Sequence record: OR776998
Length of the DNA stretch: 64,000 nucleotides
Strand: one strand, 5' to 3'
Source: Escherichia phage YX22
Shown here: positions 21,238 through 60,207 of the stretch, one piece after another
Position numbering within the stretch: position 1 is the stretch's first letter
Layout of the letters: the number at the start of each line of letters is the position of its first letter
Notes under the pieces: generated by a model
What the model was told of the DNA's origin: nothing
What the model saw: only the letters and a program-made list of their open reading frames with translations
The model's database searches: none
Program-made: the position numbers and the translations under genes

Positions 21238-21888
21238 TTATTCTCCAAAGTCGATCTTCATATCGTCTGTTGCAAGCCCCTTCTCAAGATCATCTGCTAA
21301 AGCATTGTCAGTCTGTAGAGAAGAATCCTTGTACACGTCCGGTTCGTTCTCTTCGTCCAAGATGGACAGACGTTTGTCGATATCGTCGATCTCCGGAACG
21401 CCCGTATCGAAGTTTTCGTTGCCGTACTGGAACAACGTGCACGGCAGAGAGAACGTATACCATTTGCCAAATTGCATGAAGTCTTCATCGTTGTTCGGGT
21501 TGTTGACCTTGAAGATCTTGTTCGCCAGTGGTAGATAGATCAGGTCACCTTCCTGAGGTTGTTGTTCAATCCCAACACCGTTGCCTATCACCTCGGCAAA
21601 TCGGCGGCGCGAGATAGAGAACGTCACTTCGTCTTGCAATTGGATACCCCCAAACTTCTCCCACATCTGGGTGTTGAAGCCCTGATAATCCTGCATGTAC
21701 GCTTCGATGTCGAACGCCTGGTCGAATCTGTGGTTAGCATCGTTGGTGATAGGAAATTTTTCAACGATGGAACGGGGTATATACTTGATGTCTATCCCGC
21801 GCAACTCAATCATTTCCTGTACCAAATCTTCAATCAGCTTCTGTGTGCCTTGGTGATTGGTGGCGTTGAAATATTTAGAAGTGGCCAT
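21238..21888 (-). CDS. gp14: neck protein, gp14-like
   Basis: EGDLIYLPLANKIFKVN matches T4 gp14 EGDLIYFPMDNSLFEIN; GAGGGTA SD; late motif upstream. Confidence 0.7.
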   Translation of the reverse strand: MATSKYFNATNHQGTQKLIEDLVQEMIELRGIDIKYIPRSIVEKFPITNDANHRFDQAFDIEAYMQDYQGFNTQMWEKFGGIQLQDEVTFSISRRRFAEVIGNGVGIEQQPQEGDLIYLPLANKIFKVNNPNNDEDFMQFGKWYTFSLPCTLFQYGNENFDTGVPEIDDIDKRLSILDEENEPDVYKDSSLQTDNALADDLEKGLATDDMKIDFGE

Positions 21889-21904
21889 ATCGATACCCTC
21901 AATT

Positions 21905-21917
21905 TTGAAGGTATTTA
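21905..21917 (-). promoter_or_regulatory. late-promoter-like motif upstream of gp14
   Basis: Minus strand CGACTAAATACC then GAGGGTA SD and ATG 21888. Confidence 0.4.
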
Positions 21918-21947
21918 GTCGAAGTTTATTCTTTTGAGGAATAGCTC

Positions 21948-30660: not shown

Positions 30661-33324
30661 TTAGCTTAATGGTTTTACTTCCCATCGCTTGTCATAGTAA
30701 TGTGCAAAACCACAGTAGGATACAGACAGATGAACGATTGCATTTACTAGGCTTGCTGTAGGTAATGCAATTCTGACAAATGTTTTACCGTCACGTACCA
30801 GTTTAGTTACTGTTACCCCGGAAAGAGATTTATCACCAGCAATCATATTAGACCAGACTGCACCAGAGGCTACATTTTCCTGTGTGCTACCGGATAGCCC
30901 AAACAGAATACTGCCCCCTGATTCAGTACCAGCCAAACCATTTTTGTTAACTGGAATGATATCTGCACGCCCAGCAACGAAGCAACCATCTGGGATTTTA
31001 GTCTCTTCCCCTACAGCACAGAGAAATATATCCAAAGCCCTGTTCCATGGAACCAGTACAGTAGCTTCCTTGTGGTCAACACTCCGGAAGAACGAACTGC
31101 TATTAGAGTGAATTGCCGACAAAGTAGTGCCTGTATATGAGTTACGACCCTGTACAATATCTTCTCCATATACCCTGCCCCGGTAAAGGTTACCACGGTT
31201 ATATGTAGATATTGTGTAGGAACCATCGCTAACTTTTAAAAATTCAAAATTACTATTTAATGTAACACTACGCCCAATATACTGGTTACTTGGAGAAGTG
31301 GTATTCTCCATCAATTTGATAGCATAGTCAGAGTTAACGTAACCACTGTCAAAGATAATCCTACCAGCCTGGTACTCATTAGTAGGTAACTCAATAAAAT
31401 GAGTTACACCAGTATTCATTTTAGACTGAATCCAACAAGAAACATCTCTGAATACGATTGTTGTTTGTGCAGCAGGGGAAGCTAACTGTGAGAAGTCTAA
31501 TGCCACTGGCCCATTTATCCCTTCAATACCGAAGCCAGAGAATGAGAGGCTACGAATATCTCCATAAAATTTATGAGGTAAAATGCAACCATCTGCTGCA
31601 ATGTTGCTAGTAGCAACATACATGACAGGCAATCCATTACTGACTGGCTCATATGTAGTACGGTTAATGGCAGCTCCCCATAAAAAACCAATGTCACAAT
31701 GGTGTGCCCAAATAGATGACATATCCGTACTAGTGCTTCCATTGATACCAAAACCATAGGTACAGTCATATGCATACAAATTGGTCATAACACTAACAAA
31801 GCAAGCCATAGGCAAAGCGAACTTATAGTGGTAAAAGTCCACATCATGCACATTAAATGTCTTACCGCCACCACCTATGCCATTGCTTAAATCGAATGAA
31901 CTAATAACAAGAGGACTACCTACGTAATCAGAATCAGCATTTCGGAAAGAGAGGCGACCAATAGTAATATTGTGTCCCCATCTGGTAGAGATGAATCCAC
32001 CCTTACCTGATGTATAAATAATACTTTGTCTCTGACCAAGACCCGTAATGGATAGAGATCTGCCAGTCCAACGCTGATTGCTAATATCAATCTGTGTATC
32101 ACCAATATACATTGGTTGGGTAATTTTGATATTCAACCCATTAGCTACAGCATATGAATAGGTTGCTAACAAAGCATCCCCATCATTGTGCACACCAGTC
32201 AGGTCAGCAGCCCCCATACTTGGTGCTTTAGGATACGGACCGCCCTGAATGGTGCTGCCGTCGATATATGGGGCGTCCATCCACGCACCAAACATAGATG
32301 GGGTAACTTCGGTGCTACCACGTAAATCACGTACCCAACGTTTGCCGGATGCAGTAACAATAGTCATACCATTATCATCTGCTGATGTAACAGATGGTTT
32401 ATATACAAAATACCCGCCACCTAAATCACCGGCATTGGTTGCAATCATACCGTCAGTATGGGCTTCTACGTAAATACGTTGTTCAGCATAGGTAGGCTCA
32501 ATTGTTCGCAGTACTGCAATATTGGGGCATGTACCAATCAGCTTACTACCATCAGGCTTGCTCAGGTCTTCTCTGAGACTAGCACCAGAATTTGGGACTT
32601 CCATCAAATCTACGGTAATGTTACCTGGACTGTAGGTTAACTGACCATTAGACACAGAACTAATATAGACATTGGTCGGTAATGAAGGCAGGCCATAAAT
32701 TTTCTGAGCAGCTGCATCGAAGATAACTTTCTTGTTATCGAGTACTTGAGATGTATCCGTATTAAGAATTACCTCAGAATCTTTTACATTAGCTGAACGA
32801 GCGATTTCTTGAATACTTCGGTCAAACAACGGACTGATATTCGGTTGTTTAACAGACATTTCAGCGACTACCCAAACGCCTGCAGTCAGCGCAGTTTGTA
32901 AAGACACTTTCCCTGTCGTGCTGTCATAGGAATATTCAATTTCTGGTGTTTTGTACTCACCACCGATATAAAGAGATTGGACTCCATAAGATGTGTAATC
33001 AGGAGTGAACTCGGTTTCACCTCCTATAGCCTGAAACTTATAGATTCGAATCCCGGTTTTATAATCTTCTGGAGACAGAATCTTATCAAACAGACAGAAC
33101 ACAACGTCACCTTTGGATAATGCACACCCGAGATTCAACGTATTTCCATCGATTTCAAAGTTGTCTAACGGAACTTGCATACCACCGTTGATTGTGACTA
33201 TACCCGTGACAGGGTAGAAAGGGAGGGAGATAAACTTCTCTCCGCCCGTTGCTGTGTAAGTGTATGGAATCTGGTGCGGAGCTGTTACGACCGCTCCAAA
33301 GATGCTCTCGACGTTTCTGGTCAT
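30661..33324 (-). CDS. tailspike 2 (887 aa)
   Basis: Start at second ATG with GGGG SD; own late motif and terminator; long N-terminal region then repetitive beta-rich domain. Confidence 0.75.
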   Translation of the reverse strand: MTRNVESIFGAVVTAPHQIPYTYTATGGEKFISLPFYPVTGIVTINGGMQVPLDNFEIDGNTLNLGCALSKGDVVFCLFDKILSPEDYKTGIRIYKFQAIGGETEFTPDYTSYGVQSLYIGGEYKTPEIEYSYDSTTGKVSLQTALTAGVWVVAEMSVKQPNISPLFDRSIQEIARSANVKDSEVILNTDTSQVLDNKKVIFDAAAQKIYGLPSLPTNVYISSVSNGQLTYSPGNITVDLMEVPNSGASLREDLSKPDGSKLIGTCPNIAVLRTIEPTYAEQRIYVEAHTDGMIATNAGDLGGGYFVYKPSVTSADDNGMTIVTASGKRWVRDLRGSTEVTPSMFGAWMDAPYIDGSTIQGGPYPKAPSMGAADLTGVHNDGDALLATYSYAVANGLNIKITQPMYIGDTQIDISNQRWTGRSLSITGLGQRQSIIYTSGKGGFISTRWGHNITIGRLSFRNADSDYVGSPLVISSFDLSNGIGGGGKTFNVHDVDFYHYKFALPMACFVSVMTNLYAYDCTYGFGINGSTSTDMSSIWAHHCDIGFLWGAAINRTTYEPVSNGLPVMYVATSNIAADGCILPHKFYGDIRSLSFSGFGIEGINGPVALDFSQLASPAAQTTIVFRDVSCWIQSKMNTGVTHFIELPTNEYQAGRIIFDSGYVNSDYAIKLMENTTSPSNQYIGRSVTLNSNFEFLKVSDGSYTISTYNRGNLYRGRVYGEDIVQGRNSYTGTTLSAIHSNSSSFFRSVDHKEATVLVPWNRALDIFLCAVGEETKIPDGCFVAGRADIIPVNKNGLAGTESGGSILFGLSGSTQENVASGAVWSNMIAGDKSLSGVTVTKLVRDGKTFVRIALPTASLVNAIVHLSVSYCGFAHYYDKRWEVKPLS

Positions 33325-33339
33325 TTGAAGATACCCCAT

Positions 33340-33400
33340 AGAGGATTTGCCAATATGGGGTATTTAGTCTGAACTAATAAATTTATGAACAAAGGTATAA
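33340..33400. repeat. conserved tailspike promoter/leader cassette, copy 1 (matches 36710..36780)
   Basis: CTTGTTATACCTTTGTTCATAAATTTATTAGTTCAG..CTAAATACCCCATATTGG..TATGGGGTAT shared. Confidence 0.6.
33352..33367 (-). promoter_or_regulatory. late-promoter-like motif upstream of tailspike 2
   Basis: Minus strand GACTAAATACCCCATATTGG then TATGGGGTAT SD region. Confidence 0.5.
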
Positions 33401-36600: not shown

Positions 36601-36703
36601 AATAAACGACTTCGTCTTCTTTGACACCGAAATTTCGAGCGATAGATTGTTTGTTAACTTCTATGGAAGTGGAGCCGCGTGGTTGATTGAATTGAGAAAT
36701 CAT
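33677..36703 (-). CDS. tailspike 3 (1008 aa)
   Basis: Shares the ~150-aa N-terminal module with tailspike 1 at near identity; own late motif. Confidence 0.8.
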   Translation of the reverse strand: MISQFNQPRGSTSIEVNKQSIARNFGVKEDEVVYFTAGIDLSGFKVIYDESTQRAYSLPSGIVSGTTAVSLNEQAILAHSAGSVDLGELAVSREEYVTLPGSFDTGATLNVKNELLTHVAGKYRWEGEFPKTVPAGSTPGSTGGTGTGAWVSVGDASLRSQLSDPDGATKYPDLQIARWRDTFDPRGWNAKGDGVTDDTSALNGVLNAAPVGQKINGNGKTYKVTSLPDISRFVNTRFVYERIPGQPLYYASEEFVQGELFKITDTPYYNAWPQDKAFVYDDVIYCPFMASDRHGVSRLHVSWVRSGDDGQTWTTPEWLTDLHPDYPTVNYHCMSMGVMRNRLFAMIETRTLASNALVTCELWDRPMSRNYHPTGGITKAANQPVAVITIPEHGLFAGDFVNFSNSGVTGVSGNMTVTSVIDRNTFTVTTPNQQAFDQNNSTSRWHMGTSFHESPWRKTSLGLIPMVTEVHSFTAINNDSFMMGYHQGDVAPREVGMLYFPDAFNNPGLYQKRRIPADYEPDAAEPCVKYFDGVLYVLTRGTRSDRLGSSLHRSHDLGMTWESLRFPNNVHHSTLPFAKVGNELIIFATERADNEWEANVPDQRYFTSYPRTFYTRVNLDTWNLDNTQWVNITDQIYQGGIVNSGVGVGSVVVKDSYIYYMFGGEDHLNPWTYGDNSAKDPFKSDGHPSDLYCYKMKIGPDNRVSRDFRYGAVPDRAVPVFFDTNGVRTVPAPMEFTGDLGLGHVTLRASTSNNIRSEMLLEGEYGFIGKSVPTNNPAGQRTIFCGGEGTSSSTGAQITLYGANNTASRRIVYNGAEHLFQTADVKPYNDNAIALGGPSNRFTTAYLGSNPIVTSNGEKKTEPVVFDDAFLDAWGDVHYIMYQWLDAVQLKGNEARIHFGVIAQQIRDVFIAHGLMDENSTDCRYAVLCYDKYPRMTDMVFSHNEIVEHTDEEGNVTTTEEPVFTEVVIHEEGEEWGVRPDGIFFAEAAYQRRKLERIEARLSALEQK

Positions 36704-36709
36704 GATAAT

Positions 36710-36780
36710 ACCCCATAAAGGATGACCAATATGGGGTATTTAGGCTGAACTAATAAATTTATGAACAAAGGTATAACAAG
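36710..36780. repeat. conserved tailspike promoter/leader cassette, copy 2
   Basis: See copy 1. Confidence 0.6.
36734..36748 (-). promoter_or_regulatory. late-promoter-like motif upstream of tailspike 3
   Basis: Minus strand AGCCTAAATACCCCATATTGG..TATGGGGTATTATC ATG. Confidence 0.5.
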
Positions 36781-36805: not shown

Positions 36806-39787
36806 TTACGGGTAAGCACTCTCGAACTTACAGAACCAAGTCGTTCCTCCATCAGTTGTTGACAACCTAAAAACTTGTGTTCCAGCTGCTGTCAAAGATG
36901 GGGTACTACTTGCTAATATAACATTTGCACCAAATGTTATTGTTTTAGATGTTGTTGAATAGACAGCCAAAAGAACCTCAACATAACCAATTAGTGTATT
37001 TGTTAATACTGCTGGAGTTATTGTTACATCTCCTGTAACTGTAGCTGCGATGTAAGATGCGTCTGAAAAGTCAGGCGCATAACTTGCTGTTGGCGTCTCG
37101 AACTTTGGATTTCTTACCAATACAGGAACTCCAACATTTTTCCTGAAAATTGTACTATTGCAAACCATATCATACTCTATACCAACAAAATTCTTAGCTG
37201 CGAGTATGTTAGTAAATGTCTGGTCCGCAGAGTAAATATGAGTTATCAGCCTTGCCACCCATGCTGGTGAGTTTGAGTTTTCACACTCAATGAATGAGCA
37301 GTTGGTACTACCAACAGCGAATGGCATTAATGATGCCGTATATGAAGATAGCCCTGCGTCATTGAATGCATTCATATTCACAAAAGTCTGGCATTGAGAG
37401 AACGTATTACCGGTGGCTCCACCATCAATAAAAAAGCCAATCCCGCCGTTAATATAACCATCTACAGGATCTAAATTAGCTTTCGTGTAGTCCCATTTTG
37501 ATGGAGAATCTGCAAAACATTGATTGAAGGAATTGTTTATTGAGTTCTGTACAACAAAGCAGCATTTCATCCTTGAGTTCTGGTCAGTGACTGTATCGTC
37601 ATACATGCCCCAGTTGTGCACCTTACCAATTCTGTTATTACCACCACCACGAACCCAGGTACCAAATCGGAAATAACGACCTTCACCCATGCTAACCTGA
37701 TGATCGCTACCTTCAACAATGTGGGCTGTGCTGAGCGGATTAGTTGGTTTTAATACACCAACAGCATAAAACTTCAATAGGTGCACACCCATACCGCCAG
37801 CAATATGGATGCCATGACCATCAACGTTGGCTACGTAAATGCCTTCTAACTTGTTAGCATAGCCATCGGATATCTTAAACCCATTAACAGTTTTTGCACG
37901 GGCATCAATTAATAAGTTGCTGATATGCCCAGCGTATTGATTACCCGTCCCTTTATCGCATTTAACAGCATAGCCAGAGGAGTCTGCAACGAAGTCATCG
38001 GTGAGGTACACCCCACCGAAACCAGCATCAATGCTAACATCTCCGTGAATGTGTAGTGTCGTACTGATAGGATATTTCTTCCCATTCAGCCTGATAACTT
38101 TGCTTACAGTGTTAGGTTGTAGCCAGTCAGGATGGTTAGCAGCACTACTTGGTGCATGTTCTAAACCTGTTAAAGCTGCCGCAGCATCAATCGCATCCTG
38201 TAATGATGGATACATATCCGGGTTGACATTTATAATTTTCTTAAGCGCATTGCCAACAGTACCAGTTTCGTAATCAATTGACTTATCAAAACCTGAAAAA
38301 CCTGCTCCTGTAGGTTTAGCCAATTCTGACTTCAATGAAGCATCACCAACACTAATCCATGCGCCAACACCAACGCCGCCTGTTGTCATAAGAGTTGAGC
38401 CAGGAGCAACGGTTTTAGGAAGTGTACCATCCCAACGATACTTTCCATCAGTATGGGTGAGTAATTCATTTTTAACATTGATGACAGCACCAGAATCAAA
38501 TGTCCCAGACAATGTAACATATTCTTCACGAGATACAGCCAATTCCCCGAGATCTACAGAACCCGCTGAATGCACAAGTACAGCGGAAGAACTAAGACTG
38601 ACAGCAGTAGTACCAGGGACAATATCAGCAGGCAAGGGATAAGCCCTTTGCGTCTCCTTGTCATAAATAACTTTATACCCACTTAACGCAGCACCAACAC
38701 TAAAATAAACGACCTCTGTATCTTTAACATTGGTTACACGAGCAACTTCCCGCAAAGTATAATCAATTTGATTATAGATGTTTGGTGTTCCATTGATAAT
38801 TACAACAACTTCATCCTCTGGTTCCAGTTCTTGCGCAAGAGTGATTTTACTGGTTAATGGATCGAATGTGAATCCCAGATTTTTATACTGGCGACTTCCG
38901 TTTATATCAATGGCCGGAACATCATCAACAACGACGTCCAACGTGATTTCGGTTTCACCGCCAATCGCTGAACCCCCATTATAGACCCAGGTAATCGTAG
39001 AAGAACTAGAACCACCGCCATTACCCAATTGAATAGGAGTATATTCAATCACCTGAAGTTCTGTGTTGGCTGGCAAAGAAGGGCTGAAAGTGATTACATT
39101 CCCATCTAGTGAATATTTGGATTCCGCAAGACGTTTTCCGTCAGCATACACGTCCACGATTGTTGGTGGGGTATTGAGAGCGACAGTACTTGTTTCAGAC
39201 GCCAAAATTTTTGTAAAGATTTCACGACTGTAGACGCGACCTTGGCCAAGACCGACGCCGGATGTAATAATCCAACCTTGTTCAGGTCCAGACCAAGTGA
39301 ACGTTGCTGATACGTTATCAGTTGTTATAGCCATGTCTTCAGTGGAGCCATACAAATTATTTCCAGAAGGAGACACAGTCAATGGGTAAGTGGCAAATTT
39401 CCCATAAGCATCACAAATAGTAACGGAATCCCCAATACGCGTAGGGGAAGGGAGAACCACTGTAGATGCCCCTGTGGTATTATTAATGAGATAGCCTCGC
39501 CCTTCAGTGAGCGTTGCCGTAGAGGCATGCGGAAGGACTTCCCAGCGGATACCACCGCCACCCAGCGGCAACCATCCACCATTTTCATAGAAGCCCTCAA
39601 ATTCGTCGGAGTCGGCATTGTAGCGAACGGAAGACGGGAGTCCTGCGCTGGCATTACCCTCGGGTAAAGTCAGGACAGCATCTGGTCCATGCTCAATCGT
39701 ACCCGTGTTGAGGAGACCAGCCAAAGTAGACTGCTCTTCAGCCGCCAGACCGAGAGGGAAAACAGGCTGTGTTGGTTTATTAGCCAT
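36806..39787 (-). CDS. tailspike 4 (993 aa) with ~340-aa N-terminal extension
   Basis: Conserved module is internal (after residue ~350); start at ATG 39787; own late motif. Confidence 0.8.
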   Translation of the reverse strand: MANKPTQPVFPLGLAAEEQSTLAGLLNTGTIEHGPDAVLTLPEGNASAGLPSSVRYNADSDEFEGFYENGGWLPLGGGGIRWEVLPHASTATLTEGRGYLINNTTGASTVVLPSPTRIGDSVTICDAYGKFATYPLTVSPSGNNLYGSTEDMAITTDNVSATFTWSGPEQGWIITSGVGLGQGRVYSREIFTKILASETSTVALNTPPTIVDVYADGKRLAESKYSLDGNVITFSPSLPANTELQVIEYTPIQLGNGGGSSSSTITWVYNGGSAIGGETEITLDVVVDDVPAIDINGSRQYKNLGFTFDPLTSKITLAQELEPEDEVVVIINGTPNIYNQIDYTLREVARVTNVKDTEVVYFSVGAALSGYKVIYDKETQRAYPLPADIVPGTTAVSLSSSAVLVHSAGSVDLGELAVSREEYVTLSGTFDSGAVINVKNELLTHTDGKYRWDGTLPKTVAPGSTLMTTGGVGVGAWISVGDASLKSELAKPTGAGFSGFDKSIDYETGTVGNALKKIINVNPDMYPSLQDAIDAAAALTGLEHAPSSAANHPDWLQPNTVSKVIRLNGKKYPISTTLHIHGDVSIDAGFGGVYLTDDFVADSSGYAVKCDKGTGNQYAGHISNLLIDARAKTVNGFKISDGYANKLEGIYVANVDGHGIHIAGGMGVHLLKFYAVGVLKPTNPLSTAHIVEGSDHQVSMGEGRYFRFGTWVRGGGNNRIGKVHNWGMYDDTVTDQNSRMKCCFVVQNSINNSFNQCFADSPSKWDYTKANLDPVDGYINGGIGFFIDGGATGNTFSQCQTFVNMNAFNDAGLSSYTASLMPFAVGSTNCSFIECENSNSPAWVARLITHIYSADQTFTNILAAKNFVGIEYDMVCNSTIFRKNVGVPVLVRNPKFETPTASYAPDFSDASYIAATVTGDVTITPAVLTNTLIGYVEVLLAVYSTTSKTITFGANVILASSTPSLTAAGTQVFRLSTTDGGTTWFCKFESAYP

Positions 39788-39820
39788 TTCAAATACCCCT
39801 AAATGTGTTCGTTTCATCTA

Positions 39821-39835
39821 GGGGTATTTAGTTTT
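39821..39835 (-). promoter_or_regulatory. late-promoter-like motif upstream of tailspike 4
   Basis: Minus strand AACTAAATACCCCTAGATG..TAGGGGTATTTGAA ATG. Confidence 0.5.
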
Positions 39836-41887: not shown

Positions 41888-43649
41888 AACGCACCTCCGG
41901 CTCCACAGTTACAGCACCGATGCGGAGCACCTGATTCTGTGTGGCCTGAATGTTCTGGTCAAGACCGTCTGGAGACACAATTATTGTCACACCCTCAGTG
42001 TTGTAGTTGGATACTATGATACGCTGGAGTTCAACAACGCCAGTCGCATAATCAACCTTTCCAACAGCTTGTACCAGATATTCCTTGGTCGTGTCTGTTG
42101 TACTCACCTTGTACATATTCAGGACACCACTGACGTCGCGTATGTAGTAAGTGAATTCGACCTCGGCCGGAAGCGGCTTAAACCCACTGATACGCACAGA
42201 ACCAGACGCAATCGAGCGCCCATAATCGAACGTGAAGCTGTCCAGTACCCCATAGTCTGGCTTGAAATGGCGCTTATACTTCACAGAAGTGATGTTTGAC
42301 ACTATCGATCTGTCCATGTCGGTGATTGCCGACTGTAACTGCTCTTTATCGAACAGTTCGTCGAATCCTTCTAGATTCCCCAAGCCCCAGTTGACAACAC
42401 CGTTCTTCACGACTGTCTTCAACTGCTCTTCGGTATAGGACGTGGAAGTCGGATCCCAGAACACGCGGGTGATGACATCAACATAAGTCAGTTCAGCGTC
42501 GACAATCTTGGGTGTGATCGTGCCCACATTGTACTTGTCTAACGTCGCCACGATATCTGCCTTCTCAGCGTCCGAGAGCGCCTCACCAACAGAAGGTATC
42601 ACAGCAATGTAAACGTATCCGGAGTCGGGCGGAGAGAGCGTGTCGCCGCCATATGCTTTGGCGCGGGAGACGTTAGAGAACAGACGCTCGGTCAACACAG
42701 CATAATCGACTTCGGCCACTGCCGCACCCTCAGCCTGATAAGCCAGCGGAGCAAGACGCTTGATGTCCTCAATGCTCTCTGGGTCCTTACCACCGGAAGA
42801 ACGTTCTGACACCAGCTCAACATCTACAAGGTTGAATCCCCCGATGGAAGACGCGGAGGACAAGGCAGTGATGTCATTGCCGTCTGCACCAGCTGTCTCC
42901 AGATACTGGAGGTACACGATGTTCCCGTCTTCTACTCGCTTACAGATATACCCATCACCGAATTCGAACGTGTACATCCCGTCCAACCCCAGCTCAACGA
43001 AGTAGAGTTGCGCATACTGGCTCAAATCGAACGGGCTGACATATCGTGAGAAGGTAGACCGCACGTCAGATGTCTCAGATTCCTGCACCTGCACCACCAT
43101 ATGGTCGATGTCCACGGAAGAAGATGGGATCACATAGGTAGAGATCGCGCTGCCTTCCACATCATAGGACTTGTACAGCCAGTTACCCTGTATGAGTTTG
43201 ATGTTCTCGAACTTGTAAGAGCCGTCTACAAGAGAGGCACTCACAGGTTGGTCAACCGTGAAGTTATAGGATTTTCCATCCTTCACCCCAATGAACATCG
43301 CGCGGCGATCCATCACAATCGTGTCTGGAGCCGTGCTGGCGTCATATGGAGTGACTGTGACGTTTGCGTACAGGTACGCTGCCTGGTAGTTGTGAGGGGT
43401 GTAAGATAAGAACCCCGCCGCCAGACCGACATTAGAACGCTGTTGAGCAGAGTGAAGATGGCTTTCGCCATTCAACATGTTCTGCATGAACCCGATAGAG
43501 TTGGCATCCGAGGCCAAGATACGCACGATTGCACTGAGACCAGAACCTTCAAAGTCATAATCCTTGAAAGTTGGATCAGCTTTCATGCGCTTCTTGATAA
43601 GATACTCGAAAGCCCTGACATCGAGTGAAGGGACTGTTTGCGTGGCCAT
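41871..43649 (-). CDS. gp6: baseplate wedge protein, gp6-like
   Basis: FKDYDFEGSGLSAIVRILA and GGKDPESIEDIKRLAP match T4 gp6 FLDYDFEGSRLNVLCDLLA and GGGDPEDIERIRELG; start at ATG 43649. Confidence 0.75.
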   Translation of the reverse strand: MATQTVPSLDVRAFEYLIKKRMKADPTFKDYDFEGSGLSAIVRILASDANSIGFMQNMLNGESHLHSAQQRSNVGLAAGFLSYTPHNYQAAYLYANVTVTPYDASTAPDTIVMDRRAMFIGVKDGKSYNFTVDQPVSASLVDGSYKFENIKLIQGNWLYKSYDVEGSAISTYVIPSSSVDIDHMVVQVQESETSDVRSTFSRYVSPFDLSQYAQLYFVELGLDGMYTFEFGDGYICKRVEDGNIVYLQYLETAGADGNDITALSSASSIGGFNLVDVELVSERSSGGKDPESIEDIKRLAPLAYQAEGAAVAEVDYAVLTERLFSNVSRAKAYGGDTLSPPDSGYVYIAVIPSVGEALSDAEKADIVATLDKYNVGTITPKIVDAELTYVDVITRVFWDPTSTSYTEEQLKTVVKNGVVNWGLGNLEGFDELFDKEQLQSAITDMDRSIVSNITSVKYKRHFKPDYGVLDSFTFDYGRSIASGSVRISGFKPLPAEVEFTYYIRDVSGVLNMYKVSTTDTTKEYLVQAVGKVDYATGVVELQRIIVSNYNTEGVTIIVSPDGLDQNIQATQNQVLRIGAVTVEPEVRYVQRS

Positions 43650-43686
43650 GATAATCTCCATCACCTGAGTTTGAATATGGTGTTGA

Positions 43687-43698
43687 AGATATTTAGCC
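43687..43698 (-). promoter_or_regulatory. late-promoter-like motif upstream of gp6
   Basis: Minus strand TGGCTAAATATC about 40 nt before ATG 43649. Confidence 0.4.
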
Positions 43699-55050: not shown

Positions 55051-55082
55051 TTCAATAAACCAAAGGGGGATATAATTCCCCC
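55051..55082 (+). promoter_or_regulatory. box-type promoter P2 with -10 hexamer in hairpin loop
   Basis: TTCAATAA ACCAAAGGGGGA TATAAT TCCCCC directly after polymerase stop. Confidence 0.45.
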
Positions 55083-55112
55083 TGTTAACCCTTTGACAAA
55101 CAGGTGATTGAA

Positions 55113-55454
55113 ATGAAACTCAATAAGATTCTTCTGGTGTGCGCTCTGGCTTTCTCTACCACTGCGTGCTCCACCCTTCTGGACGTTGCGTCTACTGTAG
55201 ACCTTGACGCGCCGACGTTCACCAATGAGCAGGCTGTGTCCAAGATGGAAGACACCATCAAGGCGCATGCGGCGTTGGATAACGCCACCCCAGGTCCGCT
55301 CCAAACTGTCTGCAACTATGACGATTCCATCCAGGAAGACGAAACTTACCACTGCATCACCTACGTGAAGCAGGCCTCCGTCGTTCTGTATGCAGATTGT
55401 ACCGAAGAACAGTGTGTTGCTACAGGCTACGATAAAGTTGAGGAAGACAAATGA
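55113..55454 (+). CDS. small secreted or lipoprotein
   Basis: Signal peptide MKLNKILLVCALAFSTTAC; start at ATG 55113 with AGGTGA SD (track start 55104 is GTG). Confidence 0.5.
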   Translation: MKLNKILLVCALAFSTTACSTLLDVASTVDLDAPTFTNEQAVSKMEDTIKAHAALDNATPGPLQTVCNYDDSIQEDETYHCITYVKQASVVLYADCTEEQCVATGYDKVEEDK

Positions 55455-56230
55455 ACAACCTGGTTTGTATCTATGATATGAAATCAAAGGTCGGTGGTCT
55501 GTATCGCGTCCTCGTGGATGTTGACCTGACGTTGGTCGACAGCCTCTCCCCTTGGGTGCAGTGGTTCAATGAAGAGAACATCGCCGCCGCTGCTATCGCT
55601 ACGGGGGAACATAAGTCATACCAGTTCCAGCCGATTACTAAAGAGTGTTATATGTCCCATGCTGGCGACCTGGCTATTCTGATGCGTGAACGTGCGCATC
55701 CGGCGTGGCTATACCATGAAGTCCAATTGGGGATGCACAAACAACGTGTGCCAAGCGGTAACGATCCTATGGACTGGTGGCGTCGCCCTGACTTGTACGC
55801 CAAGATGAACCCGCTCCCCGGCGCTTACGAGTTCCTGGTAAATCTGAAGGATATCTTGCTTGAAGATTTCGACAATGTTGAATTCATCGCGGTGTCGAAG
55901 TGCGAGCCGGAACACGAGCGCAGCAAGCGCCAGTTTGTCTATGACAAGTTCCCTGGTATCTTCAACGGGTTTGTCAGCACCGACGAAAAGCATCTGCTGG
56001 CTGGCGATGTCCTGATTGATGACAATCCGAAGTATGTCGAGCCATGCGGCCTGAACAACATCTTTGTCATCTTTGTTCCTCAGGGCAATTATGAAAAACT
56101 GGATCTTTCGAACTCGGAAGATATGCTTTATATTAAACCAGTAGAAGGCCAGAACCACTTCGACTTCCTGAATCACAATATTATTGAAGTGGTCAATCGC
56201 CTGATTAGTCATTATCAATACGTCCGATAG
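55451..56230 (+). CDS. HAD-superfamily phosphatase (nucleotidase candidate)
   Basis: Motif I VDVDLTLVD (DxDxT), later FIAVSK and GDVLIDDNPK. Confidence 0.5.
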   Translation: MNNLVCIYDMKSKVGGLYRVLVDVDLTLVDSLSPWVQWFNEENIAAAAIATGEHKSYQFQPITKECYMSHAGDLAILMRERAHPAWLYHEVQLGMHKQRVPSGNDPMDWWRRPDLYAKMNPLPGAYEFLVNLKDILLEDFDNVEFIAVSKCEPEHERSKRQFVYDKFPGIFNGFVSTDEKHLLAGDVLIDDNPKYVEPCGLNNIFVIFVPQGNYEKLDLSNSEDMLYIKPVEGQNHFDFLNHNIIEVVNRLISHYQYVR

Positions 56231-56239
56231 GAGGACATC

Positions 56240-56545
56240 GTGCAAGAACAATCCAAGTTTGGGGAAACCCCAGACAAGCGTTCCGGTGATAGCGACATGG
56301 ATAGCGTGATTAACCATGTGAACAACTTCATTCGTCAGCAGGAGACTCCAACTCCTATCGGTGCAGCCAAGGCTCTTCATGATGTACTGGTGAAGATCGG
56401 CCAGCGCTCTGAAGCGGATGAAATCTTCTATAACTTTGAAGACCAGTATAAAGTGAAGTTTGAAGAAAACGGTCGTCCGCAGGTTGCTGTGTTCTGGGCA
56501 CCTTGGCTGGGCGGCGTGAGCTGGCGTATTGAGGATGCTGTGTGA
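56240..56545 (+). CDS. hypothetical protein
   Basis: 101 aa ORF, overlaps next gene start. Confidence 0.5.
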   Translation: MQEQSKFGETPDKRSGDSDMDSVINHVNNFIRQQETPTPIGAAKALHDVLVKIGQRSEADEIFYNFEDQYKVKFEENGRPQVAVFWAPWLGGVSWRIEDAV

Positions 56546-58143
56546 TGTCTCGCTACCATTACACATATAGGATAACCCATGTCCCAACTGGTAGATTCTA
56601 CGTCGGGATTCGGTCTTGTTCATGCACCCCCGAACAAGATCCCTATATGGGTTCTGGTGTGATCATCAAAAGGTTGTTGGAATCTCACCCCGCTTCTGAA
56701 TTCTTAAAGACGATAATAGAAAAGTTTGAAACCAGGTTGGAAGCATCCGACCTGGAGTCTATTATTGTTACGGAAGAGTTACTGTTGGACCCATTATGCC
56801 TGAACCTGAAATTGGGAGGAGACAATTCTATCATCCCAAACCAATTTAAGGCGGCGTTGGCTAGGACTGGCAAGAAATACAAATCTGGTATAAATCCTTG
56901 GGATGATCCAGAATACCGGGAACGTGTAATAAAATCAATAAAGGAGAACAGGGGTAATTCTCCCTACCCATTCATGGTTTCAAATGGTTATTGGTGGGTT
57001 TGGAAGGACGCCTGTAGGATCTATGATAGATGGGTGAACAACGGTGGTACTGTGAATCCTACCTGTATGCCAAAACGAGGATGTGGTTACAAATCTATCG
57101 GATTGTGGTATTCTAAACTACTGGACACAGAGTATCGTAATCTAAAGGGCGATGAGAGCGTCTTTCGTAATATGATCGCCATGTTTAAAGATGGTTGGAT
57201 TCCCAAAGAGGACAAACGTTTTATGACTATGATAAATTCTAGCGTGACGCCGGGTATTGTCGTTATTCGCGGGACAAGTGGAACGGGAAAGGGGACTCGT
57301 GTCGTTCAATTCCTTGAGTGGTTGAGAACCAAATATGAGCCAGAACTCATAGAATACGAATTCGACAAGAAGATGATCCAGGTTGGGTTTTGGTTCAAGG
57401 AAATCAATCTGGTGTTCATCGGCAAGTATACAGTGTCCAACAAATCAGGTCTAGCATCATGGACTTCCATGGATTTCATACACTCCACTCTCAAGTCTTC
57501 TGAGATGGCCAATTCGTTGTTGAAGTATCTCAAAATAAAGTTCAAAGATGCAACTATCATCTTGGAGGGGGAACCTATGATGCAGAGCCATCGTTGGCGT
57601 CCCGAGTTCGTACACCAGGACTTGGGGTTCAACAACATGGCATTCATCTCCTTTATTTACCAAGCGCGGGAAGATTACGACAAACGTATCATCGGTCGTT
57701 CTGGTAAGGCGGCGAAGGACACTGGCTGGGGAAGAAATGAACAATACACCAAGGATCACGTCAAGATCATGGGTGAGTACGCTTCCATCGGATACGAACT
57801 TGAACCAGACTCTCAGAATGAGTTGTTCATTGCAAAGGCAGCGAATGAAAATGGTGTAAAGGCAGTTGGTTGGAATATACTGAAATTCTTCGATGCCCCT
57901 CTCCACTTTATTGGTAGTTTTATTATAGATTTTGTTGGATTGAGAGGGTTGTCCAAAGAAGAGTTTCAAAAATATTGCGACACCACACCAATGTTGCGCA
58001 AGATTAAGGGTAGCAACCCTTTGGCGCACAGAGTCCCTGAGAAGCCGCAGAAGGCATCCAAAACTAAAACCAAGGCGAGCGCCCAGCCAGAAGCAACGAA
58101 GGCAGCGTCGCGCTCTCTCCTTGACCTGATGAAGAAGGGGTGA
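56542..58143 (+). CDS. GIY-YIG endonuclease domain in frame with a P-loop NMP-kinase-like domain (fusion, or two genes with kinase start near 57223)
   Basis: N-terminus YHYTYRITHVPTGRFYVGI..YMGSG; downstream GTSGTGKGT Walker A; internal ATG 57223 preceded by AGAGGA. Confidence 0.55.
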   Translation: MMSRYHYTYRITHVPTGRFYVGIRSCSCTPEQDPYMGSGVIIKRLLESHPASEFLKTIIEKFETRLEASDLESIIVTEELLLDPLCLNLKLGGDNSIIPNQFKAALARTGKKYKSGINPWDDPEYRERVIKSIKENRGNSPYPFMVSNGYWWVWKDACRIYDRWVNNGGTVNPTCMPKRGCGYKSIGLWYSKLLDTEYRNLKGDESVFRNMIAMFKDGWIPKEDKRFMTMINSSVTPGIVVIRGTSGTGKGTRVVQFLEWLRTKYEPELIEYEFDKKMIQVGFWFKEINLVFIGKYTVSNKSGLASWTSMDFIHSTLKSSEMANSLLKYLKIKFKDATIILEGEPMMQSHRWRPEFVHQDLGFNNMAFISFIYQAREDYDKRIIGRSGKAAKDTGWGRNEQYTKDHVKIMGEYASIGYELEPDSQNELFIAKAANENGVKAVGWNILKFFDAPLHFIGSFIIDFVGLRGLSKEEFQKYCDTTPMLRKIKGSNPLAHRVPEKPQKASKTKTKASAQPEATKAASRSLLDLMKKG

Positions 58144-58343
58144 TCATGAAACGGTTGTCTAATTATCTGTTGTTCATTGGTCTGGTTATGGCAGCCGTTT
58201 CAATGTGTACTGCCCTAGCCTATCATTTCACCCCTCTGGACTTAACAACCTCAGAGAAGTTGAACGTGACTGTGATGTACTGTATTGGCGCGGTGATGTC
58301 TATCGGCGCTGCTGGTTACAAAATATTCAAGGAACCAAAATGA
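58140..58343 (+). CDS. small two-helix membrane protein
   Basis: 67 aa, GAAGGGG SD, overlaps neighbours. Confidence 0.45.
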   Translation: MIMKRLSNYLLFIGLVMAAVSMCTALAYHFTPLDLTTSEKLNVTVMYCIGAVMSIGAAGYKIFKEPK

Positions 58344-58717
58344 AAATTCAAATCCCTCGCGATGCTGTGGCTGTTGCGATTGACTACACCGGAAACGCCA
58401 AGCACATTACTGCCGTGCGCCTGATTCCTGAAAAGAACTGCGTCATCCCTCAGTTCCAGCTGAATGCTAATCCGTCGTCCAAAGACTTCGGCAAGTGGTT
58501 GCAGGCTGCTCCGTTCCGTACCCAGACGAATGCTCAGATGTTCATCTCGGGTAAGACCCAAACTGCAGCCCGTCTGTGGTTCGTGACCGCTGACCGTCGC
58601 TTTGTCGATATGTGGGAACGTCCGATGGGGTTCGTGAAGCCGGAAGATATTCAGCTGGATCCTGAGCCTGAAGCTGTGGCTCCTGAAGAGGAAGCGAAAG
58701 ATGCATCATTTATCTAA
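58340..58717 (+). CDS. hypothetical protein
   Basis: 125 aa from ATG 58340 with AAGGAACC SD. Confidence 0.5.
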   Translation: MKIQIPRDAVAVAIDYTGNAKHITAVRLIPEKNCVIPQFQLNANPSSKDFGKWLQAAPFRTQTNAQMFISGKTQTAARLWFVTADRRFVDMWERPMGFVKPEDIQLDPEPEAVAPEEEAKDASFI

Positions 58718-59936
58718 AATGCCGACGGGCTATACGCCTCCGGCTGAATGGAAGTACCCGATTGACCTGGCTGTTGATTATCGCAAGCCTGAGAATCGCA
58801 TGTACCTGCTCAAGGCTTGGGTGGAGGCGCTGTCCTACACAGAAGAGCACAACCAGCAGATGCGTCTGATGGACTATGCGATCGAAGTCACTGAAGGCAT
58901 CAGCCTCGAACAGAAAGTCGAGCGCAAGATCTGGATGGCATTCCTGTGGGGTTGTTGCTATAACGCTGTCGGACCGTGGACAATCTACAGTGAGTTCCCT
59001 GTACCACCCCAGTCCAAAGAAGAGATGCAGCGCTTCTCAGACTGGTACAACCTGAACTTTGAACGCATGCGATTCGATACCGACTGTCGCTACCGCAAGT
59101 CCAAGATGATTCCGTGTGTTCAGTCCTATATTGACTGGCTGGCTGGCCGTACTCAATATGACGCTTTCCGTGGGATGTTGGTGTGCATCGATAAGACAGA
59201 ACAATTCACCCAGCTGTGGGACACGGCGATGTCCTGGAAATACTTCGGTCGCCTGAGCGCCTGGAACTTCCTGGAAGCCCTGAACATGGTCTTCGGGAAC
59301 GAATACACCATTGACGTCCCTGGGTTCATGTTGCGTGACCGTGATGGAAGCGAGTCCAACCGTAATGGCGCGGCGTTCTTGTCCAACCGTGACGATTGGG
59401 TGACTAAACACGGGAAGAAAAAGATCAACGGTTGTCCTATCACGGATGAAGAGTGTGACATCCTTGAGGCCGACCTTGAGCAGGCGTTCCAGGATTGTGT
59501 GGCTGAGTTCGGGCACCTGACGTTCATCAACCGCCTGAACTTTGAAACCTCCGGTGCTTGTTGGCTGAAGAAATTCTTCCGACTGAAGAATACCCGTTAC
59601 ATCGGGTGGGACGCAGAGCGTACCTGGGATGAGATAGACTACATGGAACGCGTCTGGCCTGAATACTCCTGCGCAGCGCTCTGGGAAGCCCGTTCTCTCT
59701 GGCTGCCAGATACCCTGTTGTGTGAAAAGGCTCCTGCAGGGCACGTTCCAGGCGTCCAGAAGTGGAAGATGCCTGTGTTCTTTGAGACTGGTGTTCCTCT
59801 GCATATCTGGCACCTGCAAAGGGGTACGCGCTGGGAACCGTCCGAGGTATGTACGAACCTGAAGATGCCTGTGCGCAAGGTTGAGGACAAGCCGAAGTCC
59901 AGCAGCGTCAACCTCATGACACTCTTGAAACGCTGA
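58701..59936 (+). CDS. hypothetical 411-aa protein (DNA-modification enzyme candidate by context only)
   Basis: Long ORF overlapping upstream gene; Trp/Cys-rich; no motif recognised. Confidence 0.5.
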   Translation: MHHLSKMPTGYTPPAEWKYPIDLAVDYRKPENRMYLLKAWVEALSYTEEHNQQMRLMDYAIEVTEGISLEQKVERKIWMAFLWGCCYNAVGPWTIYSEFPVPPQSKEEMQRFSDWYNLNFERMRFDTDCRYRKSKMIPCVQSYIDWLAGRTQYDAFRGMLVCIDKTEQFTQLWDTAMSWKYFGRLSAWNFLEALNMVFGNEYTIDVPGFMLRDRDGSESNRNGAAFLSNRDDWVTKHGKKKINGCPITDEECDILEADLEQAFQDCVAEFGHLTFINRLNFETSGACWLKKFFRLKNTRYIGWDAERTWDEIDYMERVWPEYSCAALWEARSLWLPDTLLCEKAPAGHVPGVQKWKMPVFFETGVPLHIWHLQRGTRWEPSEVCTNLKMPVRKVEDKPKSSSVNLMTLLKR

Positions 59937-59972
59937 TATAAATATCCTCGCCTATAAAGCGAGGATATTATC

Positions 59973-60140
59973 ATGTTACAAGATCTGCTGGTTTATGCGC
60001 TTCCTGGCGCGGTTGTCGGCTTCATCGCTGGTGCTCTGGTCTTCCGTAAACACGCGCAAGATGGTGAAGTGATTGTTCAGAAAGGCAAAGAGATTCTGGA
60101 CCAGATCGAAGCCAAACTGGAAGAGCTGAAGAAAAAGTAA
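59973..60140 (+). CDS. small single-pass membrane protein (55 aa), absent from ORF track
   Basis: GAGGA SD lies inside the 3' arm of a 10-bp hairpin; LLVYALPGAVVGFIAGALVF helix. Confidence 0.4.
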   Translation: MLQDLLVYALPGAVVGFIAGALVFRKHAQDGEVIVQKGKEILDQIEAKLEELKKK

Positions 60141-60159: not shown

Positions 60160-60207
60160 TTCAATAAAGGGGAATGGGTTATTATTAGCCCGTTCCCCTT
60201 TCTTTTT
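60160..60207 (+). promoter_or_regulatory. box-type promoter P3 overlapping an intrinsic terminator
   Basis: TTCAATAA AGGGGAATGGGT TATTAT TAGCCCGTTCCCC TTTCTTTTT. Confidence 0.5.

What the first reader, a model, noticed from the sequence alone, without database searches (positions are those of the whole stretch)
59942..60140. Perfect 10-bp hairpin sequesters the SD of a small membrane-protein gene
ATATCCTCGC-CTATAAA-GCGAGGATAT sits directly after the stop of gene 58701..59936; the GAGGA SD of the following 55-aa single-pass membrane ORF lies inside its 3' arm. There is no T-run, so it looks more like a translational control or RNA-processing element than a terminator.
Basis: seen in the sequence. 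Interest (0 to 1): 0.4.

Follow-up and report, generated by a model that had tools for sequence, protein, structure and literature searches.

The report
Late-promoter hairpin gating a phage gene
The hairpin is real and is most likely a phage T4 lysozyme-type timing switch: it hides the ribosome-binding site of a small membrane-protein gene on long early transcripts, while a late promoter built into the hairpin's first arm makes short late transcripts that cannot fold and so are translated.

Summary
A perfect 11-bp hairpin (59941-59951 / 59959-59969, 7-nt loop; -17.7 kcal/mol, z = -5.1) holds the GAGGA Shine-Dalgarno of a conserved 55-aa membrane ORF. With T4 geometry (box at -13..-6) late transcripts start near G59950, lack the 5' arm and cannot fold (-1.7 kcal/mol). 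Read-through RNA from the upstream early-type operon folds and occludes the SD and AUG. This matches the layout of the T4 gene e leader element for element. The window is an Ackermannviridae phage. The same box / anti-SD / SD+TAT / ATG module recurs at 7-10 late genes here. In a full relative genome it also sits at the endolysin, the gene-49-like endonuclease and an ORF inserted in the DNA polymerase gene. An ORF55 homologue in a T4-like phage has an unrelated stem with the same architecture. No transcript 5' ends or translation data exist. Ortholog covariation alone is not significant. Verdict: a new member of a known kind, used unusually widely in this family.

The parts
55051..55076 (+). 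Early-type promoter motif TTCAAT-N14-TATAAT heading the operon 55104..60140 that reads into ORF55
   Evidence: Exact match. The motif gives 8 hits against 0.71 expected, with 0 of 100 shuffles reaching that count. It is published as a family regulatory motif (PMC7283392). DNA polymerase lies immediately upstream.
58701..59936 (+). Upstream gene: amino-acid:DNA transferase (aGPT-Pplase2/ADDT), a thymidine-hypermodification enzyme. Its TGA stop (59934-59936) abuts the late box.
   Evidence: Pfam PF18724, E = 4.5e-60. It is annotated alpha-glutamyl/putrescinyl thymine pyrophosphorylase clade 2 in RPN242.
59937..59944 (+). T4-type late-promoter box TATAAATA (predicted -13..-6), containing the family core TAAATA
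   Evidence: It is one of only two exact copies in 64 kb; the other is on the wrong strand inside a gene. It is invariant in 8 leader variants. It is annotated as a putative late promoter in LIMEstone1. The T4 geometry comes from PMC2988020.
59950..59950 (+). Predicted late transcription start (+1, a G), 6 nt after the box and 9 nt into the 11-nt 5' arm
   Evidence: Inferred from T4 numbering (first T of the box = -13). It has not been measured.
59941..59951 (+). 5' arm / anti-SD (AATATCCTCGC), made of the last 4 nt of the box plus a pyrimidine tract
59952..59958 (+). Loop CTATAAA, containing a degenerate second box (TATAAA) at the position where T4 gene e has its second late promoter
   Evidence: TATAAA is invariant in all variants.
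59959..59969 (+). 3' arm (GCGAGGATATT) containing the SD GAGGA (59961-59965) followed by TAT, which pairs with ATA of the box
   Evidence: SD-window accessibility is 0.08 in long RNA against 0.41 in RNA starting after the box.
59973..60140 (+). ORF55: 55-aa protein with an N-terminal membrane helix and a C-terminal charged helix; phrog_3879, function unknown
60166..60207 (+). Intrinsic terminator (16-pair stem plus T-run) ending both the operon and the late ORF55 transcript. It is overlapped by the next TTCAAT-N14-TATTAT promoter (60160-60185).
   Evidence: It is annotated as a terminator in LIMEstone1 and Marshall. It follows the ADDT gene directly in genomes that lack ORF55.
5008..5046 (-). 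Sister module: ccTAAATAcccccat..atgggggtatt..ATG (-17.2 kcal/mol) before a 242-aa gene (phrog_2114)
21886..21919 (-). Sister module before the head-closure/neck gene: TAAATAccttca..tgagggtat..ATG (-10.2 kcal/mol)
   Evidence: It is conserved in Agtrevirus, Taipeivirus and Kuttervirus.
33322..33368 (-). Sister module before a tail-spike gene (-16.3 kcal/mol)
36701..36744 (-). Sister module before a tail-spike gene (-19.6 kcal/mol)
39785..39832 (-). Sister module before a tail-spike gene (16-bp stem, -21.0 kcal/mol)
43647..43697 (-). Sister module before the baseplate-wedge gene (-11.6 kcal/mol)

Best explanation
The hairpin is the RNA half of a T4 gene e-type temporal switch. ORF55 is the last cistron of an early-type (sigma-70-like) operon of DNA-replication and DNA-modification genes, with no terminator between the ADDT gene and ORF55. 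Transcripts of that operon run through the leader, where the 11-bp hairpin forms. It buries the SD, and a weak outer helix also covers the AUG, so ORF55 is not translated early. Once the phage's gp55/gp33/clamp late machinery is active, RNA polymerase initiates at the TATAAATA box (59937-59944) near G59950. This roughly 255-nt monocistronic late mRNA lacks 9 of the 11 nucleotides of the 5' arm, cannot fold, and is translated. Shown here: the structure, the box and its geometry, the operon layout, conservation, recurrence of the same module at late genes, and identity of layout with T4 gene e. Inferred: the actual late start site, read-through from upstream, and the size of the translational effect.
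For: (1) The hairpin is stable and non-random: -17.7 kcal/mol with z = -5.1 in the read-through leader, but -1.7 kcal/mol with z = +1.0 when the RNA starts at 59950. (2) An exact TATAAATA overlaps the 5' arm. About 1 copy is expected per 64 kb on both strands, so landing by chance in this roughly 12-nt slot on the right strand has a probability of about 1e-4. (3) T4 late boxes occupy -13..-6 (PMC2988020). (4) The T4 gene e leader has the same order of parts: stop, TATAAATA, pyrimidine anti-SD, loop with a second box, SD+TAT, ATG. The mechanism is established for T4 e, soc, 49 and I-TevI (PMC3014915). (5) Operon context: a TTCAAT-N14-TATAAT promoter at 55051, no terminator before ORF55, and a strong terminator at 60166. 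(6) Recurrence: of 14 TAAATA boxes placed upstream of genes in the window, 7 have strong and 3 have weaker box-to-SD hairpins, mostly at structural genes. Their 5' arms end 6-7 nt after the box (10 nt in one case), which is the predicted +1. (7) Cognate arms pair far better than non-cognate arms (-13.0 vs -7.7 kcal/mol, permutation p = 2e-5). (8) In an unselected genome-wide test on RPN242, SD accessibility in long RNA is 0.31 for 31 box genes against 0.45 for 161 others (p = 6.6e-5). The clear modules include the endolysin, the gene-49-like endonuclease and an ORF inserted in the DNA polymerase gene. (9) The late machinery (gp55-, gp33- and gp45-like proteins) is encoded by relatives. (10) The ORF55 homologue in T4-like phage FBB1 has an exact TATAAATA and an unrelated stem, CTCTTGTT/AACAGGAG (-13.1 kcal/mol, z = -4.6; 0 kcal/mol when truncated). 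(11) All 8 leader variants keep the hairpin (-9.5 to -16 kcal/mol). The leader varies far less than ORF55 third codon positions, 69% of which vary.
Against: No transcript 5' ends, RNA-seq or Ribo-seq exist for any Ackermannviridae phage in the searched literature. The late start, the early class of the upstream operon and the read-through are therefore all inferred. The family's late promoter has never been defined experimentally (PMC3184105). Its commonest form is CTAAATAcCcc, and the ORF55 site matches it only partly (ATAAATAtCCt). TATAAATA is not enriched by count in the window (2 found vs 1.06 expected). Ortholog covariation for this stem is not significant: 7 of 11 pairs never vary, and no pair changes on both sides relative to the commonest pair. 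The phiMAM1 homologue has only a weak hairpin (-6.7 kcal/mol, z = -0.4). Some alleles of a sister module have lost the hairpin. The 5' arm starts only 5 nt after the ADDT stop codon, so a terminating ribosome could transiently open it.
Confidence: 0.7

Rival explanations
1. Translational coupling device. The hairpin keeps ORF55 silent unless a ribosome finishing the ADDT gene reaches the TGA at 59934-36. Its footprint (about 12-15 nt downstream) would melt the 5' arm (59941-51) and free the SD, so ORF55 would be made early in proportion to ADDT. This could coexist with the late-promoter mechanism.
For: The stop codon abuts the box, and the 5' arm begins 5 nt after it, in all 8 variants. In phiMAM1 the TAA of the box is itself the stop codon of the upstream gene. 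The sister module at 5039 also follows a stop codon closely.
Against: The same architecture occurs where no ORF ends nearby: at tail-spike genes preceded by terminators, at RPN242 endolysin and gene-49-like genes with gaps of 50-70 nt, and in FBB1, where tRNA genes lie upstream. In classical coupling the anti-SD lies inside the upstream coding region, whereas here it lies after the stop. Coupling also does not explain a perfect late box at that spot. T4 gene e has the same stop-box adjacency and is repressed on long RNAs.
Confidence: 0.12
2. RNA 3'-end stabiliser or processing site. The stem-loop would protect the 3' end of processed ADDT mRNA from exonucleases, or serve as an endonuclease (RNase III or RNase E) site that separates the ADDT and ORF55 messages.
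Against: An 11-bp stem is short for RNase III. This reading gives no reason for the 3' arm to be the SD plus TAT, or for the 5' arm to begin inside a promoter box. Sister modules often follow true terminators, where no upstream message needs protecting. There is no Rfam match.
Confidence: 0.05
3. Weak terminator, attenuator or pause site for the upstream operon.
For: A hairpin follows a gene end. The downstream sequence UAUUAUCAUGUU is moderately U-rich. One sister module (5039) is followed by UUUUCUU.
Against: The consensus scan does not call it and there is no U-run. A strong, conserved terminator lies 190 nt downstream (60166-60207). In genomes lacking ORF55 that terminator follows the ADDT gene directly, so it is the operon's terminator.
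Confidence: 0.04
4. DNA-level palindrome: an operator for a dimeric DNA-binding protein, or a structure that influences promoter opening, rather than an RNA structure.
For: The inverted repeat overlaps a promoter. A T4 late-promoter-binding protein (DsbA) is known. In RPN242 one pair of divergent late boxes forms such a repeat trivially.
Against: Arm sequences differ between modules while staying complementary. Loop lengths range from 4 to about 17 nt, and G·U pairs are tolerated. These features fit RNA pairing and do not fit a fixed protein site. The 3' arm always sits at SD distance from the ATG.
Confidence: 0.05
5. Chance complementarity between a pyrimidine-rich promoter-proximal tract and a purine-rich SD, with no function.
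For: C-rich sequence after the box and G-rich SDs will pair to some degree at any late gene. Non-cognate arm pairs still average -7.7 kcal/mol.
Against: The stem has z = -5. Cognate pairs beat non-cognate pairs at p = 2e-5. Pairing extends into ATA/TAT and into site-specific flanks. The leader is more conserved than synonymous sites. An independent stem occurs in FBB1.
Confidence: 0.03

Closest known systems
Phage T4 gene e (lysozyme) leader (McPheeters et al. 1986, as reviewed in PMC3014915)
   Same: The order of parts is the same: upstream stop codon (TAA ttt / TGA), TATAAATA, pyrimidine anti-SD (CCTTC / TCCTCGC), a loop holding a second (T4) or degenerate (here) box, SD followed by TAT (GGAGGTAT / GAGGATAT), then ATG. 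Long early transcripts fold. Late transcripts start inside the 5' strand and are translated.
   Different: The host phage belongs to a different family (Ackermannviridae, not Straboviridae). The regulated gene is a 55-aa membrane protein of unknown function, not lysozyme. There is only one intact box. Nothing has been shown experimentally here. The stem is a clean 11-bp perfect helix.
T4 soc, gene 49 and I-TevI leaders; Aeh1 mobE hairpin (PMC3014915)
   Same: They share the principle of an SD and/or AUG sequestered on read-through RNA, relieved on late-promoter transcripts. In the relative RPN242 the gene-49-like endonuclease and an ORF inserted in the DNA polymerase gene carry the same module.
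   Different: In T4 only a handful of about 50 late promoters are arranged this way. In this family roughly half of the box-bearing genes are, including tail spikes that already sit behind terminators.
Ackermannviridae conserved motif CTAAATAcCcc (PMC7283392; the 'Viunalikevirus' genus description, recalled from memory)
   Same: The ORF55 box shares the TAAATA core and a pyrimidine tract (ATAAATAtCCt). The motif is enriched in the window (23 hits vs 9.1 expected, 0 of 100 shuffles) and sits before structural genes.
   Different: The ORF55 site matches the T4 consensus (TATAAATA) better than the family consensus. The published motif is described only as a regulatory motif. In the literature I could search, its C-tract has not been described as pairing with the downstream SD.
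SD-sequestering hairpins relieved by upstream translation (translational coupling, e.g. MS2 and the E. coli atp operon; from general knowledge)
   Same: The SD is buried in a local helix next to the end of an upstream ORF.
   Different: Here the anti-SD lies after the stop codon and inside a promoter, not within the upstream coding sequence.

Membership tests
T4 gene e / soc / 49 / I-TevI-type late-promoter-embedded anti-SD hairpin | The SD and/or start codon is sequestered in a stable helix on transcripts that enter from upstream | tested here: met
   An 11-bp perfect stem contains GAGGA, and an outer helix covers the AUG. Energy is -17.7 kcal/mol with z = -5.1. SD accessibility in long RNA is 0.08.
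T4 gene e / soc / 49 / I-TevI-type late-promoter-embedded anti-SD hairpin | A T4-type late -10 box is placed so that the 5' strand of the helix lies at or upstream of the late +1 | tested here: met
   An exact TATAAATA lies at 59937-59944. With the box at -13..-6 the +1 falls at 59950, which removes 9 of the 11 arm nucleotides. The truncated RNA folds at only -1.7 kcal/mol.
T4 gene e / soc / 49 / I-TevI-type late-promoter-embedded anti-SD hairpin | Late transcript 5' ends are mapped inside the hairpin | not testable with these tools
   No transcript-start data for the family were found. This needs cappable-seq or primer extension.
T4 gene e / soc / 49 / I-TevI-type late-promoter-embedded anti-SD hairpin | The gene lies downstream of an early or middle transcription unit with no intervening terminator | tested here: met
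   This is met by prediction only. An early-type promoter motif lies at 55051. Replication and modification genes run up to 59936. No terminator is called before 60166.
T4 gene e / soc / 49 / I-TevI-type late-promoter-embedded anti-SD hairpin | The phage encodes the gp55 late sigma factor, the gp33 co-activator and the gp45 clamp | tested here: met
   All three are annotated in the close relative RPN242 and reported for AG3 and CBA120. I did not locate them within this 64-kb window.
T4 gene e / soc / 49 / I-TevI-type late-promoter-embedded anti-SD hairpin | Translation is demonstrably lower from long than from late transcripts | not testable with these tools
   This requires reporter fusions, toeprinting or Ribo-seq.
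Intrinsic (rho-independent) terminator | A G+C-rich stem followed directly by a U-run | tested here: not met
   The stem is followed by UAUUAUCAUG. The scan does not call it, while the true terminator at 60166-60207 is called.
Ackermannviridae CTAAATAcCcc late motif | A match to the 11-nt consensus upstream of a gene | tested here: inconclusive
   The site reads ATAAATAtCCt, which is 8 of 11 with the TAAATA core intact. It is not among the CTAAATACC hits allowing 1 mismatch, but it shares the module architecture.
Curated cis-regulatory RNA families (Rfam 15) | A covariance-model match at the hairpin | tested here: not met
   No match overlaps 59937-59972 at E <= 1. Only sub-threshold hits fall on the terminator.
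Translational-coupling hairpin | The anti-SD strand lies within reach of ribosomes translating the upstream ORF | tested here: inconclusive
   The 5' arm starts 5 nt after the stop codon. That is outside the coding region but within the footprint of a terminating ribosome. Many sister modules have no nearby upstream ORF.

The most novel reading that the evidence does not exclude
The conserved Ackermannviridae 'late promoter' motif CTAAATAcCcc is a composite element. TAAATA is the gp55-type -10 box, and the C/pyrimidine tract (together with ATA of the box) is an anti-Shine-Dalgarno that pairs with a co-evolving SD+TAT just before the start codon. On this reading, about half of the family's late genes (tail spikes, baseplate, neck, endolysin, endonuclease VII-like, inserted ORFs, ORF55) are translated only from their own late transcripts. 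This would make each promoter/insulator/ORF unit a portable, self-timed cassette. It would also explain why ORF55 appears, with the same architecture but different stems, at different positions and even in a T4-like phage.
Probability: 0.5. Interest if true: 0.55.

Novelty: new member of a known kind. Interest (0 to 1): 0.45.

Why it matters
It turns an anonymous hairpin into a specific, testable timing switch and gives the first concrete prediction of a late transcription start in this phage family (G59950). The late promoter of the Ackermannviridae (ViI-like phages, widely used for Salmonella, E. coli O157, Klebsiella and Dickeya biocontrol) has never been mapped. The recurring box/anti-SD module supplies a sequence rule for finding late genes. 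It also corrects start codons of tail-spike genes. It suggests that the C-tract of the published motif serves translation rather than transcription. It marks ORF55 as a strictly late membrane protein in a family listed as spanin-less, with incompletely known lysis genes, which makes it a candidate worth testing for a lysis or envelope role. For phage engineering, inserted genes would need this module, or would need to avoid it, to be expressed at the right time.

Tried and rejected
- Enrichment of TATAAATA by count: not significant (2 found vs 1.06 expected; with 1 mismatch, 40 vs 34). The argument rests on placement, not count.
- The palindromic variant TATTAATA upstream of tail-spike genes as the late promoter: dropped. 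Those sites are duplicated sequence next to terminators, and the CTAAATA sites closer to the start codons fit better.
- Ortholog covariation for the ORF55 stem: not significant. I do not count the G:C / G·U / A:U series as proof.
- My first impression that Miltonvirus lacks the module was wrong. phiMAM1 has a CTAAATA box and a weak hairpin.
- Function of ORF55: Pfam gave nothing significant, only sub-threshold glycine-zipper and ZapG-like hits. PHROGs gave unknown function. Record annotations say only 'membrane protein'. A neighbouring lipoprotein-like gene in distant homologues' contigs has no family. The lysis link is only a hint.
- Literature searches found no transcriptomics or transcript-start data for the family, and no prior description of the hairpin/late-box arrangement in it. 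The library lacks most subscription journals, so a prior description cannot be excluded.
- Rfam: no family matches.

Full report
**What is there**

The window is part of an Ackermannviridae (ViI-like) phage genome. It is 98% identical to Escherichia phage LHE287, and 278 related records exist.

At the reported position the sequence reads TGA TATAAATA TCCTCGC CTATAAA GCGAGGATAT TATC ATG. The inverted repeat is perfect over 11 nt (59941-59951 / 59959-59969) with a 7-nt loop. As RNA it folds at -17.7 kcal/mol in a 55-nt leader (z = -5.1; 0 of 200 shuffles as stable). The SD GAGGA (59961-65) lies in the 3' arm, 7 nt from the ATG. A weak outer helix pairs the stop codon and the start of the box (UGAUAU) with AUGUUA, the start codon. 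No T-run follows, and the terminator scan ignores the hairpin.

The 55-aa ORF is a real gene:
- It is present in 226 phage records and belongs to phrog_3879.
- Its variable sites fall 6/4/38 across codon positions 1/2/3.
- It has one N-terminal hydrophobic helix.

**The missing piece**

Directly after the TGA of the upstream gene lies TATAAATA (59937-59944). This is the exact T4 late-promoter consensus, and its last four bases start the 5' arm. LIMEstone1's authors annotated this spot as a putative late promoter, and annotated the stem after the ORF as a terminator.

T4 late boxes occupy -13..-6. A late transcript would therefore begin at G59950, after 9 of the 11 arm nucleotides. That RNA has no structure (-1.7 kcal/mol, z = +1.0). 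SD accessibility rises from 0.08 in the long RNA to 0.41 in the short one.

**Context**

- The upstream gene (58701-59936) is an amino-acid:DNA transferase (PF18724, E = 4.5e-60).
- It closes a string of replication and modification genes that follows the DNA polymerase gene.
- That string is headed by the family's sigma-70-like motif TTCAAT-N14-TATAAT at 55051. The motif has 8 sites against 0.71 expected in the window.
- No terminator is predicted before ORF55. A strong one lies at 60166-60207.

ORF55 is therefore the last cistron of an early-type operon and also has its own late promoter. This is the situation of T4 genes e, soc, 49 and I-TevI. There, long early RNAs hide the ribosome-binding site, and late RNAs initiated inside the hairpin expose it.

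I retrieved the T4 gene e leader. It reads TAA ttt TATAAATA CCTTC TATAAATA ct TAGGAGGTAT t ATG. That is the same order of stop, box, anti-SD, loop box, SD+TAT and ATG. The ORF55 loop even keeps an invariant degenerate box (TATAAA) where T4 gene e has its second promoter.

**Relatives**

Eight natural leader variants were found in Agtrevirus, Limestonevirus and Kuttervirus genomes. All keep TATAAATA abutting the stop codon, and all keep a stable hairpin (-9.5 to -16 kcal/mol).

The three substitutions in the stem core all preserve pairing: C:G to U·G at one pair, and G:C, G·U and A:U at another. Loop indels extend the stem. One variant has a single mismatch. The formal pair count is nevertheless not significant, because 7 of 11 pairs never vary. 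Ortholog covariation by itself proves nothing here. The leader does vary much less than ORF55 third codon positions (69% variable) in the same genomes.

In Taipeivirus and an Erwinia phage the whole cassette (box, hairpin and ORF) is absent, and the same terminator follows the transferase gene directly. In phiMAM1 a different gene (MAM_009) occupies that slot before the terminator.

ORF55 homologues occur elsewhere:
- In phiMAM1 the homologue lies 3 kb downstream. A CTAAATA box overlaps the upstream stop codon, but the hairpin is only weak (-6.7 kcal/mol, z = -0.4).
- In the T4-like phage FBB1 the homologue lies behind tRNA genes. It has an exact TATAAATA and an unrelated stem, CTCTTGTT/AACAGGAG (-13.1 kcal/mol, z = -4.6; 0 kcal/mol when truncated at +1).

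The architecture therefore travels with the gene while the stem sequence changes.

**A recurrent module**

While looking for the family's late promoter I found that the published motif CTAAATAcCcc is enriched in the window (23 hits vs 9.1 expected, 0 of 100 shuffles).

At seven genes the bases from inside the box through about 7 nt beyond it form the 5' arm of a hairpin of -10 to -21 kcal/mol. The 3' arm is the SD plus TAT, just before the ATG. Three more sites show a weaker version. The genes are three tail spikes, baseplate wedge, head closure, tail sheath, a 1612-aa virion protein, phrog_2114 and, weakly, a helicase.

Three tests support selection for pairing:
- The 5' arms end 6-7 nt after the box (10 nt in one case), which is the predicted +1.
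- Cognate arm pairs are much more stable than non-cognate pairs (-13.0 vs -7.7 kcal/mol, permutation p = 2e-5). The pairing is site-specific co-variation, not just C-rich sequence meeting G-rich sequence.
- SD accessibility in long RNA is 0.19 for ten modules and 0.24 for all 14 box sites, against 0.49 for 40 control genes.

I repeated the scan without hand-selection on the complete, annotated relative RPN242. The 31 box-bearing CDSs have less accessible SDs than the 161 others (0.31 vs 0.45, p = 6.6e-5; 45% vs 11% below 0.25). The clear modules include the endolysin (-16.1 kcal/mol), the crossover-junction endonuclease that corresponds to T4 gene 49 (-17.3 kcal/mol), and an ORF inserted in the split DNA polymerase gene. 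These are the same kinds of gene that T4 controls this way.

T4 has A/T-rich sequence after its late boxes. The C-tract in this family is better explained as an anti-SD.

**Rivals**

- **Translational coupling** is the most serious rival. A ribosome terminating at 59934-36 would cover part of the 5' arm. However, many sister modules have no upstream ORF nearby, and T4 gene e has the same stop-box adjacency yet is repressed on long RNA.
- **Terminator, RNA processing site, DNA operator and chance** are each disfavoured for the reasons given in the rivals section.

**Limits**

- No 5'-end, RNA-seq or Ribo-seq data for this family were found.
- The family's late promoter is undefined experimentally.
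- The early class of the upstream operon is inferred from gene content and promoter type.
- The function of ORF55 is unknown. The family is listed among spanin-less phages. In unrelated high-GC phage contigs the 43-aa homologue sits next to a gene for a lipoprotein-like protein with a C-terminal membrane segment. These are hints of a lysis or envelope role and nothing more.

**Verdict**

The hairpin is real and is best explained as a T4 gene e-type late-promoter/anti-SD switch (confidence 0.7). It is a new member of a known kind. The added observation is that this design is used far more widely in the Ackermannviridae than in T4, and that it probably explains the C-tract of the family's conserved late motif.

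Noticed in passing
window 55051-55083, 60160-60207, 62649-62695 (+ strand); 7196-7221, 7457-7482 (- strand): The family's early-type promoter motif TTCAAT-N14-TATWAT is embedded in G+C-rich terminator hairpins, with the spacer forming the 5' arm and the -10 element forming the loop. Terminator and next promoter thus form one composite element. The element after the ADDT gene is conserved in Menlow, phiMAM1 and phiEa2809.
   Followed up: partly
window 33324, 39787, 43649, 28388, 17586, 5010, 1816 (- strand starts): Mechanical ORF calls start these late genes at upstream in-frame ATG/TTG/GTG codons (33339, 39817, 43700, 28436, 17619, 5052, 1909). The SD+TAT arm of each module points to the downstream ATG as the true start. 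RPN242's annotation agrees for its orthologues.
   Followed up: partly
window 56542-58143 (+): A single 533-aa ORF joins a GIY-YIG-type homing-endonuclease N-terminal part to a P-loop nucleotide kinase (phrog_314, phrog_4409, phrog_15209). In RPN242 these are two separate genes, a SegD-like endonuclease and P-loop nucleotide kinase 2.
   Followed up: no
window 28620-28690 and 33620-33680: An upstream region of about 60-70 nt is duplicated at two tail-spike genes. In each copy a terminator is followed by the palindrome TATTAATA and the same AT-rich sequence. Its role is unknown.
   Followed up: no
window 59937-60141 vs L005 (Menlow) 1764-1790: The box, hairpin and ORF55 cassette (about 205 bp) is a clean insertion between the ADDT stop codon and CTGA...TTCAATAAAGGG. 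The 3' end of ORF55 (CTGAAGAAAAAGTAATCTGAC) resembles the 3' end of Menlow's ADDT gene (CTGATGAAGAAATAACTGAGC). This may be microhomology at the insertion site, or it may be coincidence.
   Followed up: partly
L231 (RPN242) 41439-45621 vs window 52051-55050: In RPN242 the DNA polymerase gene is split by an inserted 292-aa ORF that carries its own CTAAATA/anti-SD module (record 143001-143879). In this window the polymerase gene is intact at 999 aa.
   Followed up: partly
L229 (RPN242) 19102-19151: Two divergent late boxes (for the head completion gene and the neighbouring + strand gene) are reverse complements of each other. Each box pairs with the other's complement near the opposite SD. This is a special case in which the hairpin follows trivially from the divergent promoters.
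   Followed up: no
L029, L032, L033, L058 (metagenomic viral contigs), about 730-1330: 43-aa homologues of ORF55 (…GFIAGALVFRKH…) in high-GC phage contigs are followed at once by a gene for a protein of about 200 aa. That protein has a lipobox (LAGC), a coiled coil and a C-terminal membrane segment, which is a unimolecular-spanin-like layout. No PHROG family matches it.
   Followed up: partly
window 32013-32020 (+): The only other exact TATAAATA in the window lies on the non-coding strand inside a tail-spike gene. It is probably a chance occurrence.
   Followed up: yes
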